Shown here: positions 234-63,177 of the stretch, piece by piece
Layout of the letters: each line of letters opens with the position of its first letter
How positions within the stretch are numbered: the stretch's first letter is position 1
The notes under the pieces: model-generated
Database searches by the model: none
What the model was told of the DNA's origin: nothing
The model's input: the letters and a program-made list of their open reading frames with translations, nothing else
Source of the DNA: Microbotryum violaceum
Taxonomy: Eukaryota
Direction of reading: 5' to 3'
DNA length: 64,000 bases
NCBI GenBank assembly: GCA_001244265.2
Contig: LN717261.1
Span: 248,001-312,000 of the forward strand
Translations under genes and position numbers: made by a program

Positions 234-262
234 GCGCCTCTGGCTGGGCTTTCTGGGGTCCT
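234..262 (+). promoter_or_regulatory. 29-bp repeated upstream motif (copy 1, upstream of HOG1)
   Basis: GCGCCTCTGGCTGGGCTTTCTGGGGTCCT; near-identical copies at 5308-5336(-), 51511-51539(+), 59729-59757(+) and 63149-63177(-). A regulatory role is inferred only from position. Confidence 0.55.
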
Positions 263-779
263 TCCTCCCTGCTATTCGCGCGATTGACCTAATTCCGATT
301 TATATTCGCCCGTCCTTTGTCAGACACCGTGCCACCCGTGCCACCACCTCATCGTCAGCGACACCTAGTTTTCATCTCGCCTGTCCCTCGCACTGCTTCA
401 TACCTCCTACTCCAGGCGTCCAGTTGCTGTTCAGTGATCATCACCAATCGCGTGCTCGATCCGCTCCGCTTACTGGTCCTCGTGAGTTGCAACCTGCAAC
501 GCAGGCCCTGCGCTGCCCGCAAGGCCGGCGATGCGCCTCGTCCAAACGTAAGTCTCCCGTCGCTTACTTTGTCGGCGCCGCCTTCATCTCGCTACAGATT
601 AATAGGACGTCCATAATCTGCCTCGTAACCTCTTTGATTCCCTTGGCGCATCCGACCATTGCACCTGCCTTCGTCCTCGCGCTTCGAAGCCACCTCAATC
701 TCGATCTCAAACAATCCTCGAGAGCACGCAAACCTAGGCTCTACCACTCCCGCGTTTCCTGGACGATTCGCGATATATC

Positions 780-2952
780 ATGGCCGATTTTGTCAAATTG
801 AGCATTTTTGGTACTGTGTTCGAGGTGACGACGTAAGTTGACGGTGCGCCAGTGCTGTGATTCACGCCGAGCACTGTCAATGTGCACGCGTGCGCTTGCT
901 CATCCTCGGTCCAGCCGCGCCTGGCGGGCTGGGCCCTCCGAGGGTGATCTGCACACTTCGGATCCGAGTGCGGTGACGCAGGCGTTGATGTAGATCGGAG
1001 CAACATATACATGTCCGGGGAGGGCTTCCGACTATGGATCGTGACTGGCCCTTGCTTCGTTTCCATTTGCGGCTGCTGATTGCCGTGCCAATCGCCTTGC
1101 TCGACCAGTCGTTATGTCGATCTGCAGCCTGTTGGGATGGGCGCCTTCGGTCTGGTGTGCTCTGCAAAGGATGAGGTCAGTGCTATGTCTGCAGCTTCAT
1201 TGATGTGATTCCTGATCGTAACTGAGGCGGCTGGAACGTTATGACCTCGGTTCCCTTTGGCTCGTCGAGTAACAGTTGACTGGAACTTCAGCCGCCATCA
1301 AGAAGATGTAAGCCTTTCGGAGCCAGCGAACTTCGTCTCTCTTGTCTGAACTGGCCGAACGTCGATTAACCCGTCGGCAACATCTTTTGCTCGTACAGCA
1401 TGAAGCCATTCAGTGCGTAGGCGTTTTGCTCGGTTCCACACGTTTCGAAAGAAGCTTACACCGCGATCCTTCCGCAAACCCACTTTCTCCTTCCCTGCCA
1501 CTCCCACAGGCACACCCGTACTTGCCAAGCGAACGTATCGCGAGCTCAAGCTGCTGAAACACATTCAGCACGAAAATATCATCTCCTTGTCCGACATCTT
1601 TATCTCCCCCCTGGAGGACATCTACTTTGTCACCGAACTGCTCGGAACGGATCTGCACCGACTTCTGACCAGTCGCCCGCTGGAGAAGCAATTTATTCAG
1701 TACTTCTTGTACCAAATCTTGGTACGTCCTCGGGCCTTCGTCCCCTTTCACCTTAACCGCAGCGCATACTCCTGCTGACTTTCTTTTCTCCTGCCCTCTG
1801 GTTTCCTACTTCGCGATGCAGCGTGGACTCAAGTATGTTCACTCCGCCGGAGTCGTCCATCGTGATCTTGTCAGTCTATCTGTCCCACAGCAGTTTCTAG
1901 AGATGGCCGAGTCAAGGAACTGTGCTTAACCTCTTTTGACTCTGGATTACATACACAGAAACCTTCCAACATCCTCGTCAACGAGAACTGCGATCTCAAA
2001 ATCTGCGACTTTGGACTGGCGCGACTAGCTGACCCCCAAATGACGGGCTACGTCTCAACTCGATACTATCGAGCACCCGAGATCATGCTGACGTGGCAGA
2101 AATACGATGTTGCTGGTCCGTTGACACACACGATGGAATGCCAGTGACGACTGCTGACGCGCGTTGCTCTCTGTCTTCGACAGTGGACATCTGGAGCGCT
2201 GGTTGCATCTTTGCTGAGATGCTCGAGGGACGACCTCTATTCCCGGGCAAAGATCGTAAGCTCGCAAGCCCTTTTATATCTGACGACGATTGCGTGTCCC
2301 TGACTGCCATCCTATTCCTTCCGCCGTTGCCTGGCGGAGCGTAGACGTGAATCAGTTCTCGATCATCACCGAACTGCTCGGGACCCCGCCAGAGGACGTC
2401 ATTCAAACCATCTGCAGCGAAAACGTGAGCGCCCAGAATTTGTTCCGTGCACGGCGGCGCTAGAGCCTGCGCTGAGCACTACGCAACGCTTCTAACCCCT
2501 ACAGACTTTGCGCTTTGTGCAATCGCTGCCAAAACGAGAGAGAATCCCTTTTGCACAAAAGTTCCGTGGGGCCGACCCGCTCGCCCTCGGCTTGCTGGAG
2601 AAGATGCTCGTATTCGACCCGCGTACGCGCATCGACGCTACACAGGCCCTTGCCCATGAATACCTTGCTCCCTACCACGACCCTTCCGACGAACCTGTTG
2701 CGCCTGAAGCTTTCGACTGGAGTTTCAACGATGCCGATCTACCGGTCGACACATGGAAGGTCGGTTCGCACTGCATGCTGTTTAACCTGCACACATGTGG
2801 AGCACTGCACGATCCTCGGCGCTCACTCGGCTTCTTTCTTTCCACAGATCATGATGTACAGCGAAATTCTCGACTTCCACAACATCGAGAACGCCGACAC
2901 TACGGAAGGTGCTGTTGCTGCGCCGACTGCGCCAGCCGCGCCTGCAGCATAG
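780..2952 (+). CDS. HOG1: Stress-activated MAP kinase Hog1/Sty1 (multi-exon)
   Basis: Spliced reading [39 protein letters not shown]...[13 protein letters not shown]...HRDLKPSNIL...[25 protein letters not shown] (TGY loop)...[31 protein letters not shown] introns; stop TAG at 2950-2952. Confidence 0.97.
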
Positions 2953-60627: not shown

Positions 60628-63005
60628 CTACTCATCCTCCTCCACCTCAATCCCCTCGGCCCGCGCCGCTTGGTCCACCATCTCCCTCGTCCTCTCCCTC
60701 ACCTTCCTCTGCAACCTCATCCAACCCCCTAAAGGCGTCTTCTCCTTCTCGAAACCCAACAAGAATCTCTCCACCTTGTCCCTCTGCATCGGCGCAAACT
60801 CGATATTTTCCCTCTCCCCTTCGATCCACTTGGCATTCATCTCCGTCTTGTCGACCAAGACCTTGATCAACATCCCTAATTTGGCTTGCCGCGTCTTTTT
60901 AGCGTGCCTCTTGAGCGTGACGATGCAAGGTAGACTCCATTCGGGGAACGCGATCGAGGTCGACCACGCAGTGAGGTACTCTCCTAAGAAATGTACGACC
61001 TCATCCGCCAACCCATCGGCGTACACCCTCGTCTTGGGGTATTTCGAGGGCGCCTTGAGATACAACTCGAAATCCAACGGTTTCAGAGTAGATCGCTTCA
61101 ACGCCCTCGCCGCAAGACCTGTTGGGGACGTCCCTCCCAACTCGGGGGAATCGAGGACTTCGAAGAGGCTCGTCGCGAGCGGGATGTAGACTCCCGTTTT
61201 TTGGACGATGCGCAGGAGGGATCGGATGAAGTGGAAGCGTAGGGGAAAGTAACGCGAGGTAGGCACGAGGCGGATCGCGCCTTGACCGACTTGGATCAAC
61301 GGGTACAACAGTTGGCGTAAGGGCGAGTCGTGGGTTTGGGAACGCGTGCGTTCGAGGTCGCACGCTGAACTGAGCACGATCGACCAAAAGTCAAAGGCGT
61401 GTACGAACTGCCAGTTGTAGGCCGATTTGAACGAGTCCTGGATCGAAACGCGTCAGATTAGCACAGCTTTTTTCCGAGAATGGCGAGAATATTCGGCGGC
61501 CCACCTTGAACCCCTCCTTGACGGCCTTCCTCAACAACATCGCCAACATCCTCACGTACCCAAACGTCAACTGGTACACCAACTCCTGCTCCTGTTTCCC
61601 GTCGATCAAGAACAACTGACTCGCCGCGTTCTTCATCAGGTTCAGACTCGGCAACGAATGCACGTTCGTCGTCTTTGACGAGCTCAAAAAGGTCGCGTAC
61701 ACGCCTTTGAGAACGGATTCACGCAGACTGTGGTCGGAAGCGATGGCAAGTTTACGAAGGCCGAGGAAAGCTGCGACGCGCACTTCGTCGGTCGAGGATT
61801 CGTACAACGAGAGCAAGAGCTTGACCCATGCTCGAGCGATCTTGCGATTGCCTACGATGTAGGGCACCAGCTTGGACGACTCGTTCACCGCGACTGAAGG
61901 GATCCCCGAAGAAGTCGATACGCTGCCCAAGAGGGCTTGCAAGGAAACAAAGTAGGACTTAATCAGTCGTTGGGCCAACGCATAGGCTTTCGTATTGGTC
62001 GCGAGCTTGTATTTGCCGTACTTTTCCTTGTACGGCACGGCAGAGGATAGAGTCACCGGGGTGAATTTGAGCGAGGCGATGATGAGGTTGTGGAACACTT
62101 TGGGCGATTGGATCTCCCAGCGTGCGCCTTGTAGTGAGGTCTGGTGCGATCCGGTCGTGGCGGCGCATCGGAAGGCGAGCAAGAGTTTCTTGAGCGAGCC
62201 GATCGAGCGGGTCTGAGGAGGGAGAAACGTGATCAGTCCAGGGTTCGGACGCCTCAGGCTGACAAGACTAACCTGCAGGATGGATTTCTGCCATTTCCTG
62301 AGAATTTCGTGCGTCAAGACGGGTGCTGGCTTCTCCTCCTTTTCGACTTTTTTGCCTCGCCTGTTGGTGTCTTCCTCATCCTCCTCGTCGTCGTCCTCAT
62401 CGTGCTTCTCTTGGTCATCGTCGTCCTGCTCATCCTCATCCTCGTTGAACTGGAGCAACTCAGCGTCGTTCTCCTGCAAGTACTTGAAAAAGTCGGGGTT
62501 CTTCTCGGCCAAAGCCTTGAGATCGGCGACGTGGGATCGTTTGCACGAGCGTGAAGCGGTCTCGTTGTCGGAATCGGAGCCGAGATTGGACAAGTCGTCG
62601 TCTTCGAGGGCGAGATCATCGTCGTCGTCGTCGTCGTGGCCGCTCTGTGGGGGGAATAATGGTTTCAGTTTGGGCAAGGTCACCGAATCGCATTCTGCTG
62701 TGACGGACCTGATCATCGTTCTGTAACCCATCGGCGCCCAAGACGTCCTCGACGTCGATCTCATCCTCGTCCTCATCCTCGCTATCCTTGGCTCGGTTAC
62801 CCGCCTCTTCATCCAAACTGTCCTCTCCGTCGTCGTTGTCCCCGTCAGCTGGCTTTACCTCGTCAGCCCTCCTGTTCCTCTTGACCTGCCTCCCCTTCAC
62901 TTTTTGTCTGAACGCCTTGACCTCGTGCCGTTTCTTGATCTGGCCGGACAAGAGCCCTTTTTTGAGGAACGCTTTCGTCTGTTTGCCTTTGGAGACTTTG
63001 CCCAT
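60628..63005 (-). CDS. NOC2: Nucleolar complex protein 2 (60S biogenesis), multi-exon
   Basis: MGKVSK..TKAFLKKG, acidic tracts, LAEKNPDFFKYLQENDAELLQF, AFRCA, FGYVRMLAMLLR, LLYPLIQV..GAIRLVPTSRYFPLRFH, SIAFPE. Confidence 0.93.
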
Positions 63006-63148
63006 CTTGAACCGAGTGGACGGGGATGAATCAAGGAAGGCCGAGTGGGATGGGCTGGAGGAAGGGAGAGCGGAGGAGGAGGGGAGCCGAGTCTGAAACT
63101 CTGAAGCCCGAGCTCGGACGCTTCGCAGCCGGCAAGGCGAGGCGAGGG

Positions 63149-63177
63149 AGGACCCCCGAGAGCCCAGCCGGAGGCGC
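63149..63177 (-). promoter_or_regulatory. 29-bp motif copy 5 (upstream of NOC2)
   Basis: Minus strand GCGCCTCCGGCTGGGCTCTCGGGGGTCCT, 144 bp before the NOC2 ATG. Confidence 0.55.

What the first reader, a model, noticed from the sequence alone, without database searches (positions are those of the whole stretch)
234..63177. A 29-bp element in sense orientation upstream of five unrelated genes
Seen: GCGCYTCYGGCTGGGCTYTCKGGGGTCCT occurs five times (234+, 5308-, 51511+, 59729+, 63149-). Each copy points toward a nearby ATG: NOC2 144 bp, the small ORF 189 bp, the ORF at 5096 212 bp, the ORF at 51775 236 bp, and HOG1 518 bp (probable 5'-UTR intron, gtaagt at 548). I saw none inside the TE coding blocks. 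It is much longer than a typical fungal TF site. Inference: either a lineage-specific promoter module, possibly domesticated from a repeat, or the end of a small element that targets promoters. Three of the five downstream genes are only hypothetical.
Basis: partly seen in the sequence, partly recalled or inferred. Interest (0 to 1): 0.75.

Follow-up and report, generated by a model that had tools for sequence, protein, structure and literature searches.

The report
Transposon end repeat, not promoter module
The repeated 29-base element is the terminal inverted repeat of a P-element-type jumping gene of an anther-smut fungus, and it seems to point at genes only because a transposon's end always faces the host DNA beside it.

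Summary
In detail: five copies at the stated places, none expected by chance. The promoter-module reading does not hold.

The 29-mer (up to 31 bp) is the terminal inverted repeat (TIR) of a high-copy cut-and-paste transposon family.
- Minus-strand copies (5308, 63149) are left ends. Each is followed by three ~54-bp subterminal repeats and the N-terminus of a multi-copy Microbotryum protein.
- Plus-strand copies (234, 51511, 59729) are right ends. The same protein's C-terminus and a ~180-bp subterminal block lie before them.
- Full-length relatives carry a Ulp1 protease plus a core whose model matches Drosophila P element transposase (Z 27, next 12.8).
- An 8-bp duplication, GCGCCCCG, abuts the ends at 5308 and 51539.
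- Contigs from public DNA runs break inside the 29-mers, and depth there is 30-50 times the unique level.

All four copies sit 144-518 bp upstream of start codons, which fits the promoter preference described for P elements. With four insertions this is only suggestive.

Left open: host genes now lie between the two ends that share the duplication.

The scan had already noted a P-type Ulp1 transposon elsewhere in this genome (e1-7176048). I could not link the two by sequence.

Verdict: a new member of a known kind, of modest interest.

The parts
205..262 (+). Right end of copy 1: last 29 bp of the subterminal block plus the TIR (232/234-262). The element interior lies to the left and the HOG1 side to the right.
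   Evidence: 91% identity to 51482-51539 over 58 bp; motif hit.
5300..5307 (+). Left copy of the 8-bp target-site duplication GCGCCCCG of element E1.
   Evidence: The 8-mer occurs 3 times on the + strand of the window; two of these abut the outer ends of a left and a right TIR.
5308..5338 (-). Left TIR of element E1. It reads AGGACCCCCGAAAGCCCAGCCGGAAGCGC on the + strand.
5339..5583 (+). E1 left subterminal region. It holds a T-run and three ~54-bp units, each with TTGACATTT (5357, 5411, 5463) and a degenerate copy of the TIR, then the start of the element ORF (about 5518).
   Evidence: tblastn of P0018 aa 1-24 on 5518-5582 is weak (E 0.009).
5584..6865 (.). Nested non-autonomous Tc1/mariner-like element with perfect 28-bp inverted ends, TA-flanked CAGT termini. 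It interrupts E1.
   Evidence: 5584-5611 against 6865-6838, 100%; sequence.
6866..8441 (+). E1 body, an internally deleted remnant of the element protein: aa 54-98 of P0018 at 7005-7145 (79%) and aa 1378-1510 at 7258-7736; the C-terminus of P0016, P0006 and P0007 runs to 8372.
   Evidence: tblastn.
8442..8592 (+). E1 right subterminal block, left part (X-left), cut at 8592/8593 by the 3' end of a Helitron.
   Evidence: 95.4% identity to 51333-51483; alignment.
8593..14816 (-). Helitron Y, shown to at least 14816. It is inserted in the A-run of X. Its 3' end is ...CCCGTTAATTTAACGGGTTCCCACTGG.
   Evidence: 97% identity to 59712-57771 and 87% to 57780-57596; Helitron_like_N at 8722-9198.
51333..51508 (+). 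Right subterminal block X. Its last 25 bp (51484-51508), together with the TIR, are the 56 bp that E1 lacks after 8592. It contains TTGACATTT at 51441.
   Evidence: Loose ends at 51333 show that other genomic copies continue leftward like 8400-8441.
51509..51539 (+). Right TIR.
51540..51547 (+). Right copy of the 8-bp target-site duplication GCGCCCCG.
57560..57597 (+). Decayed subterminal remnant (GGCGGCCCGCAAAATTGGACATTTTTGGCCCATAA) of copy 3, left of a Helitron insertion.
   Evidence: Sequence; motif TGGACATTT at 57578. Its resemblance to X and to 5360-5400 is by eye only (inference).
57598..59711 (+). Shorter copy of Helitron Y that splits copy 3. Its 3' CTGG is at 59708-59711.
59712..59757 (+). 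Right end of copy 3: an A-rich stretch plus the TIR (59727-59757).
   Evidence: 93% identity to 5349-5308 over 42 bp.
63149..63179 (-). Left TIR of copy 4.
63180..63566 (+). Copy 4 left subterminal region, with TGGACAAAT at 63189, 63244 and 63298 (spacings 55 and 54 bp).
   Evidence: Depth in the bins 63152-63585 and 63586-64000 (the latter lying beyond this part) is 34-43 times the unique level in run X1.
63567..63998 (+). N-terminal part of the element protein (MYLDDPDIELLDDDFERMAP...). It runs off the window.
   Evidence: 14 relatives at E 6e-63 to 4e-25. tblastn E 1e-57 to 1e-67.

Best explanation
The 29-mer is the terminal inverted repeat (29-31 bp, outer end 5'-AGG...) of a P-superfamily cut-and-paste DNA transposon family of Microbotryum. 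Its autonomous members encode one long protein: a family-specific N-terminus, a Ulp1-type protease, a P-element-type transposase core and a family-specific C-terminus. Most copies are internally deleted and non-autonomous.

The five occurrences are ends of four copies:
- 234 is a right end.
- 5308 is a left end and 51511 a right end. They share one 8-bp target-site duplication.
- 59729 is the right end of a decayed copy split by a Helitron.
- 63149 is the left end of a copy that runs off the window.

Shown here: the TIR geometry, the subterminal repeats, the coding remnants, the high copy number, one 8-bp duplication, and the P-type fold of a close relative's core.

Inferred: the transposase binds the subterminal T(G/T)GACAWWT repeats and cuts at the 29-mer, which is why the 29-mer stays nearly invariant while the interiors decay. 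Each copy points at a gene because the outer edge of a transposon always faces host DNA. The family, like the Drosophila P element, lands preferentially in open 5' intergenic DNA.
For: (1) The conserved stretch ends abruptly at ...GGGGTCCT in all 5 copies. Similarity continues only on the inner side.

(2) Both minus-strand copies are followed on the + strand by three T[GT]GACA[AT][AT]T motifs at 52-55-bp spacing. Of 12 motif hits in the window, 9 lie in these element ends, against 2.4 hits expected from shuffles.

(3) Coding remnants have the polarity expected for left and right ends.
- The N-terminus of the family protein lies at 63567-63998, beside the left end at 63149.
- In E1, aa 1-24 and 54-98 follow the left end at 5308. 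The C-terminus follows at 7258-8372 and then the X block, which elsewhere ends in the plus-strand 29-mer.

(4) The protein is multi-copy: 14 relatives at E<=1e-3, 13 of them named Microbotryum silenes-dioicae and lying on 13 different contigs. P0007 is an internal-deletion form of P0016.

(5) The core of P0016 has 893 relatives at E<=1e-3. Of 28 that I scanned, 9 carry Peptidase_C48 and 3 have sub-threshold Tnp_P_element HTH hits.

(6) The AlphaFold model of P0017 (82% identical to P0016; pLDDT mostly 70-93 over residues 40-530) matches Drosophila P element transposase.
- Foldseek: E 7.8e-12, target TM-score 0.64-0.65; the next hit is Hermes at 1.8e-4.
- VIA: Z 27.0, rmsd 3.5 A, 396 of 442 residues aligned. 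The next hits are Transib 12.8, Tn5 11.9, RAG1 10.8 and Hermes 9.9.

(7) GCGCCCCG abuts the left TIR at 5300-5307 and the right TIR at 51540-51547. It has only 3 + strand occurrences in 64 kb. E1 lacks exactly the last 56 bp, which sit at 51484-51539.

(8) In two DNA runs the single-copy Logan contigs run 51514-57670 and 59732-63178, so they break inside the 29-mers. Bins holding the element ends have summed depth 9,777-11,570 against 226 (X1) and 324-872 against 27 (X7).

(9) The P element review PMC7776569 (passages read) lists 31-bp TIRs, 8-bp target duplications, internal transposase-binding sites, internally deleted non-autonomous copies, and insertions highly prevalent around promoters.
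Against: - No copy with both TIRs and a clean interior lies in the window. Left and right ends are joined by inference plus a single target duplication.
- The two ends that share the duplication are 46 kb apart. They now bracket host genes: a KAR4/METTL14-type MT-A70 gene with orthologues across Microbotryomycetes, a short-chain dehydrogenase and an AlkB-like gene.
- A 151-bp piece of the subterminal block is present twice (8442-8592 and 51333-51483).
- The flank of the 59729 copy (GCGCTCGG) resembles GCGCCCCG, and contig breaks hint at other copies followed by GCGC. A target preference could therefore make a chance match of the duplication less unlikely.
- The transposase core itself is not in the window; it is known only from relatives in M. 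silenes-dioicae and unnamed sources.
- Sequence methods did not place the core in the P family. Pfam gave nothing for P0016 at E<=0.1. PDB searches by sequence and by profile gave nothing. The protein-atlas scores of 0.80-0.86 are below its 0.9 line.
- No THAP domain was detected.
- Depth from contigs is not a copy number.
Confidence: 0.85

Rival explanations
1. The 29-mer is a host cis-regulatory (promoter) module, selected for its place and orientation upstream of genes, possibly after domestication from a repeat.
For: All five copies lie 144-518 bp upstream of an ATG and point toward it. The 29-mer is far better conserved than its surroundings.
Against: Orientation toward the gene follows from its being a transposon edge. 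Every copy has transposon DNA on its inner side. Two copies belong to one insertion with a target duplication. Depth suggests copy numbers of the order of a hundred, with heterogeneous interiors. Strong TIR conservation is what transposase recognition predicts. Nothing here tests promoter activity, so secondary co-option of individual copies is not excluded.
Confidence: 0.04
2. It is the TIR of a cut-and-paste element of another superfamily that makes 8-bp duplications (hAT), and the P-type protein belongs to something else.
For: An 8-bp duplication and subterminal repeats also fit hAT. Pfam P-family models do not reach threshold.
Against: The N- and C-terminal remnants inside the TIR-bounded copies belong to the same proteins (P0016, P0018) that hold the core. 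That core matches P transposase at Z 27 against 9.9 for Hermes. No hAT-family domain was found in the window scan of 133 ORFs.
Confidence: 0.06
3. It is the conserved 3' tail of a non-LTR retrotransposon or SINE, the short copies being 5'-truncated.
For: A-rich runs precede the motif at 5308 and 59729. A LINE (47385-50840) lies upstream of the 51511 copy.
Against: The LINE ends in (AAAT)n at about 50981-51000, 330 bp before the block. Two copies have the motif at the 5' side of the element's ORF, in inverted orientation. There is an 8-bp duplication across a left and a right end. The 29-mer has no structure beyond shuffles (z -0.01 to +1.54).
Confidence: 0.02
4. It is a Helitron terminus or a Helitron target site.
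For: Helitron Y ends 17 bp from the 59729 copy, and a second Y copy abuts the subterminal block at 8592.
Against: Y has its own hairpin-plus-CTGG 3' end and is inserted into the element's A-run. The rest of the split element lies at Y's other end. The 29-mer has no hairpin and three of the five copies have no Y beside them.
Confidence: 0.02

Closest known systems
Drosophila P element and P-like/THAP9 transposons (P superfamily)
   Same: TIR of about 31 bp, an 8-bp target duplication, repeated internal motifs next to the TIRs, many internally deleted non-autonomous copies, and insertion near promoters (features taken from passages of PMC7776569). The transposase core fold matches 6p5a and 6pe2 at Z 27.
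   Different: The sequence is too distant for the Pfam P models. No THAP domain was detected. There is an N-terminal Ulp1 (C48) protease and long family-specific N- and C-terminal regions, giving a protein of 1,375-1,517 aa or more. The termini are AGG... The subterminal repeats come in three ~54-bp units. The host is a basidiomycete smut.
P elements reported from fungi (RepBase: 'only Pucciniales & Allomyces', table in Muszewska et al. 2017, PMC5751038, passages read)
   Same: A P-superfamily element in Pucciniomycotina, the subphylum that also holds Microbotryum (the taxonomic placement is recalled, not checked).
   Different: That survey identified P by Pfam PF12017 and PF12596 and found only 11 domain-bearing copies. 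This family escapes those models. The word Microbotryum does not occur in that paper's main text.
mimp elements in Fusarium oxysporum effector promoters
   Same: A short transposon-derived sequence recurring a few hundred bp upstream of start codons, which can be mistaken for, or used as, a promoter signature.
   Different: mimps are whole miniature Tc1/mariner-type elements. Here the recurring piece is just the terminal repeat of larger P-type copies.
   Same: Same genome, same pairing of Ulp1 with a P-type transposase, same AGG terminus.
   Different: I could not see its sequence. Look-ups by sequence with the subterminal block and with P0017 found nothing, so it is not shown to be the same family.

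Membership tests
P superfamily of DNA transposons | Terminal inverted repeats (31 bp in Drosophila P, 13 bp in zebrafish Pdre) | tested here: met
   A 29-31-bp repeat in inverted orientation at left ends (5308, 63149) and right ends (234, 51511, 59729), with 0-3 mismatches to the 31-mer.
P superfamily of DNA transposons | 8-bp target-site duplication | tested here: met
   GCGCCCCG at 5300-5307 and 51540-51547. This is one pair only, and the interior has been rearranged.
P superfamily of DNA transposons | Transposase with the P-type RNase H-like core and its insertion domain | tested here: met
   Tested on a relative (P0017), not on window DNA. VIA gave Z 27.0, rmsd 3.5 A and 396 of 442 residues of 6p5a_A aligned, chain residues 137-565. 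Foldseek gave E 7.8e-12.
P superfamily of DNA transposons | Match to the Pfam P-family models (PF12017, PF12596, PF21787-9) | tested here: not met
   P0016 gave no family at E<=0.1. Of 28 relatives scanned, 3 had Tnp_P_element HTH hits at 20.7-22.9 bits, below the cut-off of 23. Membership therefore rests on fold and element anatomy.
P superfamily of DNA transposons | N-terminal THAP zinc-finger DNA-binding domain | tested here: inconclusive
   There was no THAP hit in Pfam scans of P0016 and of 28 relatives. Cys/His-rich stretches exist in P0016 but were not modelled.
P superfamily of DNA transposons | Internally deleted non-autonomous derivatives that keep both ends | tested here: met
   E1 keeps aa 1-24, 54-98 and 1378-1510 of P0018. 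P0007 is P0016 without its residues up to 912 of the Ulp1 and core part.
Helitron | The motif is a Helitron terminus (3' hairpin plus CTRR, or a 5' end) | tested here: not met
   No hairpin beyond shuffles. Helitron Y has its own, different ends.
Non-LTR retrotransposon / SINE tail | The motif always lies at the 3' end, in one orientation relative to the element body | tested here: not met
   Two copies lie in inverted orientation at the 5' side of the element ORF. The nearby LINE ends 330 bp earlier.
Known structured RNA families (Rfam 15) | Match at the gathering score | tested here: not met
   0 matches in the whole window on both strands.
Host promoter element | Present at orthologous promoters of related species independently of transposon DNA; activity in reporter assays | not testable with these tools
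   No genome is held for this window. The one read-laying run covered 51000-64000 only, and its tables show no empty site.

The most novel reading that the evidence does not exclude
The family is a promoter-homing P-type transposon of fungi. On this reading the two ends 46 kb apart that share one 8-bp target duplication (5308 and 51539) are a macrotransposon: the left end of one copy and the right end of another jumped together. They carried a KAR4/METTL14-type gene, a dehydrogenase and an AlkB-like gene as cargo into a 440-bp divergent promoter. This would resemble the macrotransposition known for Ac/Ds and the hybrid-element insertion known for P (both recalled, not checked).
Probability: 0.12. 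Interest if true: 0.6.

Novelty: new member of a known kind. Interest (0 to 1): 0.3.

Why it matters
It removes a false lead: a 29-bp "super-motif" upstream of HOG1, NOC2 and three other genes is a transposon end, not a regulatory code.

It also supplies what a repeat library needs to annotate a family that domain-based surveys miss:
- the exact 29-31-bp TIR,
- the 8-bp duplication,
- the subterminal repeat unit,
- the N- and C-terminal protein remnants.

P elements were listed for fungi only from Pucciniales and Allomyces in the 2017 survey I read in passages (PMC5751038). A genome-wide scan with this TIR would show directly whether a fungal P-type element shares the promoter preference of the Drosophila P element. 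It would also show how often its ends now sit in the 5' regions of housekeeping genes in the transposon-rich Microbotryum genome.

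Tried and rejected
- Whole genome: none is held for this window, so strand and distance statistics genome-wide could not be made.
- Scan of metagenome contigs with a 23-base piece of the motif: 0 hits.
- Look-ups in earlier findings by sequence (subterminal block; P0017): nothing. The look-up by words found only unrelated bacterial and viral promoter motifs.
- LINE-tail idea: this was my first reading. I dropped it when the LINE was seen to end in (AAAT)n near 51000 and inverted left ends appeared.
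- Helitron-end idea: dropped.
- Pfam on the window's own element ORFs, even at E<=10: no family.
- Protein atlas on the 179-aa N-terminal ORF: no usable hit.
- PDB search by sequence and by profile: only chance-level hits.
- Rfam: 0 matches.
- Single-strand folding of the five copies: no better than shuffles.
- Expression: no RNA holder was listed. Runs X15 and X16 are only guessed to be RNA. Their contigs show spliced joints in the gene at 51775 and in NOC2, and one record starts at 59909. Contigs cannot show a transcription start, and no listed piece settles whether the 29-mers are transcribed.
- A degenerate left end or a second GCGCTCGG for the 59729 copy in 57000-57600: none found.
- Paper searches: 'P element' + Ulp1 + transposase + fungi gave 3 papers (titles and abstract starts seen), none on fungi. 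Microbotryum + transposable elements + Helitron gave 22 papers. Passages of PMC10502011 mention TIR elements only as a class (0.42% of base pairs) and hold no 'P element', 'MITE' or 'promoter'. These searches do not show that the family is absent from RepBase or from supplementary TE libraries, which I could not see.

Full report
**Observation.** The 29-mer GCGCYTCYGGCTGGGCTYTCKGGGGTCCT occurs five times at exactly the stated coordinates and strands. No further matches appear with up to three mismatches, and none of 100 shuffles gave any match. The stated distances to the five start codons are correct. The window is 54.6% G+C and holds no N. Earlier notes of this scan name the genome as Microbotryum lychnidis-dioicae. 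Protein hits of 92% identity to M. silenes-dioicae agree with that genus. No whole genome is held for the window.

**The motif is an edge, not an island.** In an alignment of the copies with their flanks, identity stops dead after ...GGGGTCCT on the gene side. On the other side it continues through an A-rich stretch and a recurring GCGCNTNGG...ATTTTG...TTTTGGGNCC pattern. A self-comparison of the window added three points:
- 51333-51483, just inside the 51511 copy, recurs at 8442-8592 (95.4%).
- 205-262 matches 51482-51539 (91%).
- A 1.9-kb repeat (8592-10529 = reverse of 59712-57771, 97%) with a Helitron_like_N domain ends 17 bp from the 59729 copy and abuts the 8442-8592 block.

That Helitron ("Y") has its own 3' end: hairpin CCCGTTAA-T-TTAACGGG, nine bases, then CTGG. 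It is inserted into the A-run of the block. At the 59.7-kb locus a decayed remnant resembling the subterminal block (by eye) lies at Y's other end (57560-57597). So Y is a later guest, not the owner of the 29-mer.

**High copy number.** I laid Logan contigs of two DNA runs and two runs guessed to be RNA on 51000-64000.
- In both DNA runs the single-copy contigs run exactly 51514-57670 and 59732-63178. They break inside three of the 29-mers, which is what a 31-mer graph does at a repeat.
- Bins holding the element ends have summed depths of 9,777-11,570 against 226 for unique bins (X1), and 324-872 against 27 (X7). Depth from contigs is not a copy number. As a rough inference it points to the order of a hundred copies.
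- 63152-64000, the inner side of the 63149 copy, is also high-copy.
- Loose ends at 51333 show that other genomic copies continue leftward as 8400-8441 does.

**Left ends and right ends.** Both minus-strand copies (5308, 63149) are followed on the plus strand by three units of about 54 bp. Each unit holds T[GT]GACA[AT][AT]T (5357, 5411, 5463; 63189, 63244, 63298) and a degenerate copy of the 29-mer. Of the 12 motif hits in the window, 9 lie in these element ends, against 2.4 expected.

Downstream of the 63149 copy, 63567-63998 encodes MYLDDPDIELLDDDFERMAP... This is the N-terminus of a protein with 14 relatives at E 6e-63 to 4e-25. Thirteen of them are named M. silenes-dioicae and lie on different contigs. 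The C-terminal part of the same proteins maps to 7258-8372, directly before the 8442-8592 block.

The full-length relative P0018 (1,517 aa) maps onto the element that starts at 5308 as follows:
- aa 1-24 at 5518-5582 (weak, E 0.009);
- aa 54-98 at 7005-7145 (79%);
- aa 1378-1510 at 7258-7736.

Between the first two pieces lies a nested 1.28-kb Tc1/mariner-like element with perfect 28-bp inverted ends (5584-6865). So 5308-8592 ("E1") is an internally deleted, non-autonomous copy. It consists of a left end, the start of the ORF, a deletion of roughly aa 99-1377, the end of the ORF and the right subterminal block. It is then cut by Helitron Y 56 bp before its expected end.

**Target-site duplication.** Those missing 56 bp are what lies at 51484-51539. 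The eight bases outside the left end (5300-5307) and outside the right end (51540-51547) are both GCGCCCCG. That word has only three plus-strand occurrences in the window. I take this as the 8-bp duplication of one insertion into a roughly 440-bp intergenic region between the minus-strand ORF starting at 5096 and the gene starting at 51775.

**A problem remains with that pairing.**
- The 42.7 kb in between starts at Y's 3' end and ends with a second copy of the 151-bp block (51333-51483).
- It holds retroelements, Helitrons and a LINE, but also host genes: a short-chain dehydrogenase (23408-24757), an MT-A70 gene (26016-28084) and an AlkB-like ORF.
- The MT-A70 gene has KAR4/METTL14-type orthologues across Microbotryomycetes.

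Three routes would fit. The first is a later insertion of a block into E1, either by integration of a circle through the 151-bp homology or by a staggered break. The second is a macrotransposon formed by the left end of one copy and the right end of another. The third is two independent insertions into the same preferred 8-mer. The flank GCGCTCGG of the 59729 copy, and contig breaks implying other copies followed by GCGC, hint at a target preference. I cannot decide between these routes with the data at hand.

**Which superfamily.**
- Pfam finds nothing in the window's own remnants or in P0016, a 1,375-aa relative.
- P0016 consists of the second half of a Ulp1 domain (84% identical to P0003 over 94 aa), about 800 aa of core, and the C-terminal region shared with the window.
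- A 786-aa part of the core found 893 proteins at E<=1e-3 and 131 at E<=1e-30.
- Of 28 of these that I scanned, 9 carry Peptidase_C48, 3 have Tnp_P_element HTH hits just under the curated cut-off, and 16 have no family.
- Atlas look-alikes point to TNP-like RNase H families, but at scores of 0.80-0.86, which is lead level only.
- An AlphaFold model of P0017, built on a 30-sequence alignment (pLDDT 67.9 overall, mostly 70-93 over residues 40-530), matches the Drosophila P element transposase strand-transfer complex.
  - Foldseek gave E 7.8e-12 and a target TM-score of 0.64-0.65. The next hit was Hermes at 1.8e-4.
  - VIA gave Z 27.0, rmsd 3.5 A and 396 of 442 residues aligned. The next hits were Transib 12.8, Tn5 11.9, RAG1 10.8 and Hermes 9.9.

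With a 29-31-bp TIR, an 8-bp duplication, internal repeats beside the TIRs and internally deleted copies, the anatomy is that of a P element as described in PMC7776569 (passages read). Not met or open: the Pfam P models, and a THAP domain.

**Why the copies point at genes.** A TIR read from the inside outward always points at the flanking host DNA. In this window the host DNA between transposon nests is short gene islands. That explains the orientation without any selection.

What is left is position. The four independent copies sit 144-518 bp upstream of start codons, and two of them lie between divergently oriented ORFs. Three of those ORFs are hypothetical. The NOC2 gene and the genes at 51775 and 53.8-57.1 kb are supported by spliced contigs of run X16, which is only guessed to be RNA. 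Passages of PMC7776569 state that P insertions are highly prevalent around promoters. A like preference is plausible here, but four events do not prove it.

**Rivals.**
- A host promoter module is not supported, though co-option of single copies is untested.
- A LINE or SINE tail is contradicted by the LINE's own (AAAT)n end near 51000 and by the inverted left ends.
- A Helitron end is contradicted by Y's own ends and by the lack of any hairpin in the 29-mer (z -0.01 to +1.54).
- There is no Rfam family in the window.

**Novelty.** The 2017 fungal survey lists P in RepBase only for Pucciniales and Allomyces, with 11 domain-bearing copies found through Pfam models (PMC5751038, passages). This family escapes those models. 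Microbotryum TE papers that I saw in passages treat TIR elements only as a class (PMC10502011). My fold test supports that pairing for this family, but I could not link the two by sequence. I could not see RepBase or supplementary TE libraries, so the family may already be catalogued there.

**Verdict.** This is a new member of a known kind. The finding as posed, a promoter module, is explained away.

Noticed in passing
8592/8593; 204/205; 57597/59712: Helitron-type sequence abuts the P-like element's subterminal block three times, at or next to the same TTTGACA(A)n motif. Y's 3' end follows GACAAAA at 8592. Homology to the block resumes within 2 bp of that position at 205. At 59712 Y's 3' end is followed by TGTCAAAAAA. 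This suggests a Helitron target hot spot, or spread of a composite element.
   Followed up: partly
15261-15290: This looks like a head-to-tail Helitron junction on the minus strand. A hairpin GGCGCGC-TCC-GCGCGCC is followed by GCCGAAC and CTAG, and then directly by TTACTACCTCTATATAC. The 13-mer ATAGAGGTAGTAA recurs at 194-206, just inside the 234 copy.
   Followed up: no
8442-8592 and 51333-51483: A 151-bp direct duplication (95.4%) brackets a 42.7-kb block that contains host genes and nested transposons. Four of the seven differences are CpG-to-TpG or CpG-to-CpA changes in the 8442 copy, in keeping with the RIP-like TCG mutation described for Microbotryum in passages of PMC10502011.
   Followed up: partly
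23408-24757, 26016-28084, 29244-29843: A small host-gene island lies inside the transposon nest: a short-chain dehydrogenase, a KAR4/METTL14-type MT-A70 gene with a long Q-rich tail, and an AlkB-like 2OG-Fe(II) oxygenase ORF.
   Followed up: partly
5584-6865: A non-autonomous Tc1/mariner-like element with perfect 28-bp inverted ends and TA flanks. It holds a 145-aa acidic ORF (6190-6624) with no Pfam family.
   Followed up: no
36155-42718: A Helitron helicase ORF (PIF1 at 36155-36751, Pif1_2B at 42281-42718) is split by a Copia element with 217-bp LTRs of 98.6% identity (36914-37130 and 41665-41881).
   Followed up: no
59909-62212: One 2,771-base contig of run X16 (guessed RNA, about 5% diverged from the window) runs from the small ORF at 59946 into the 3' part of NOC2 on the opposite strand, with NOC2 introns removed. 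The two genes converge closely. A contig across two genes does not show a single transcript.
   Followed up: no
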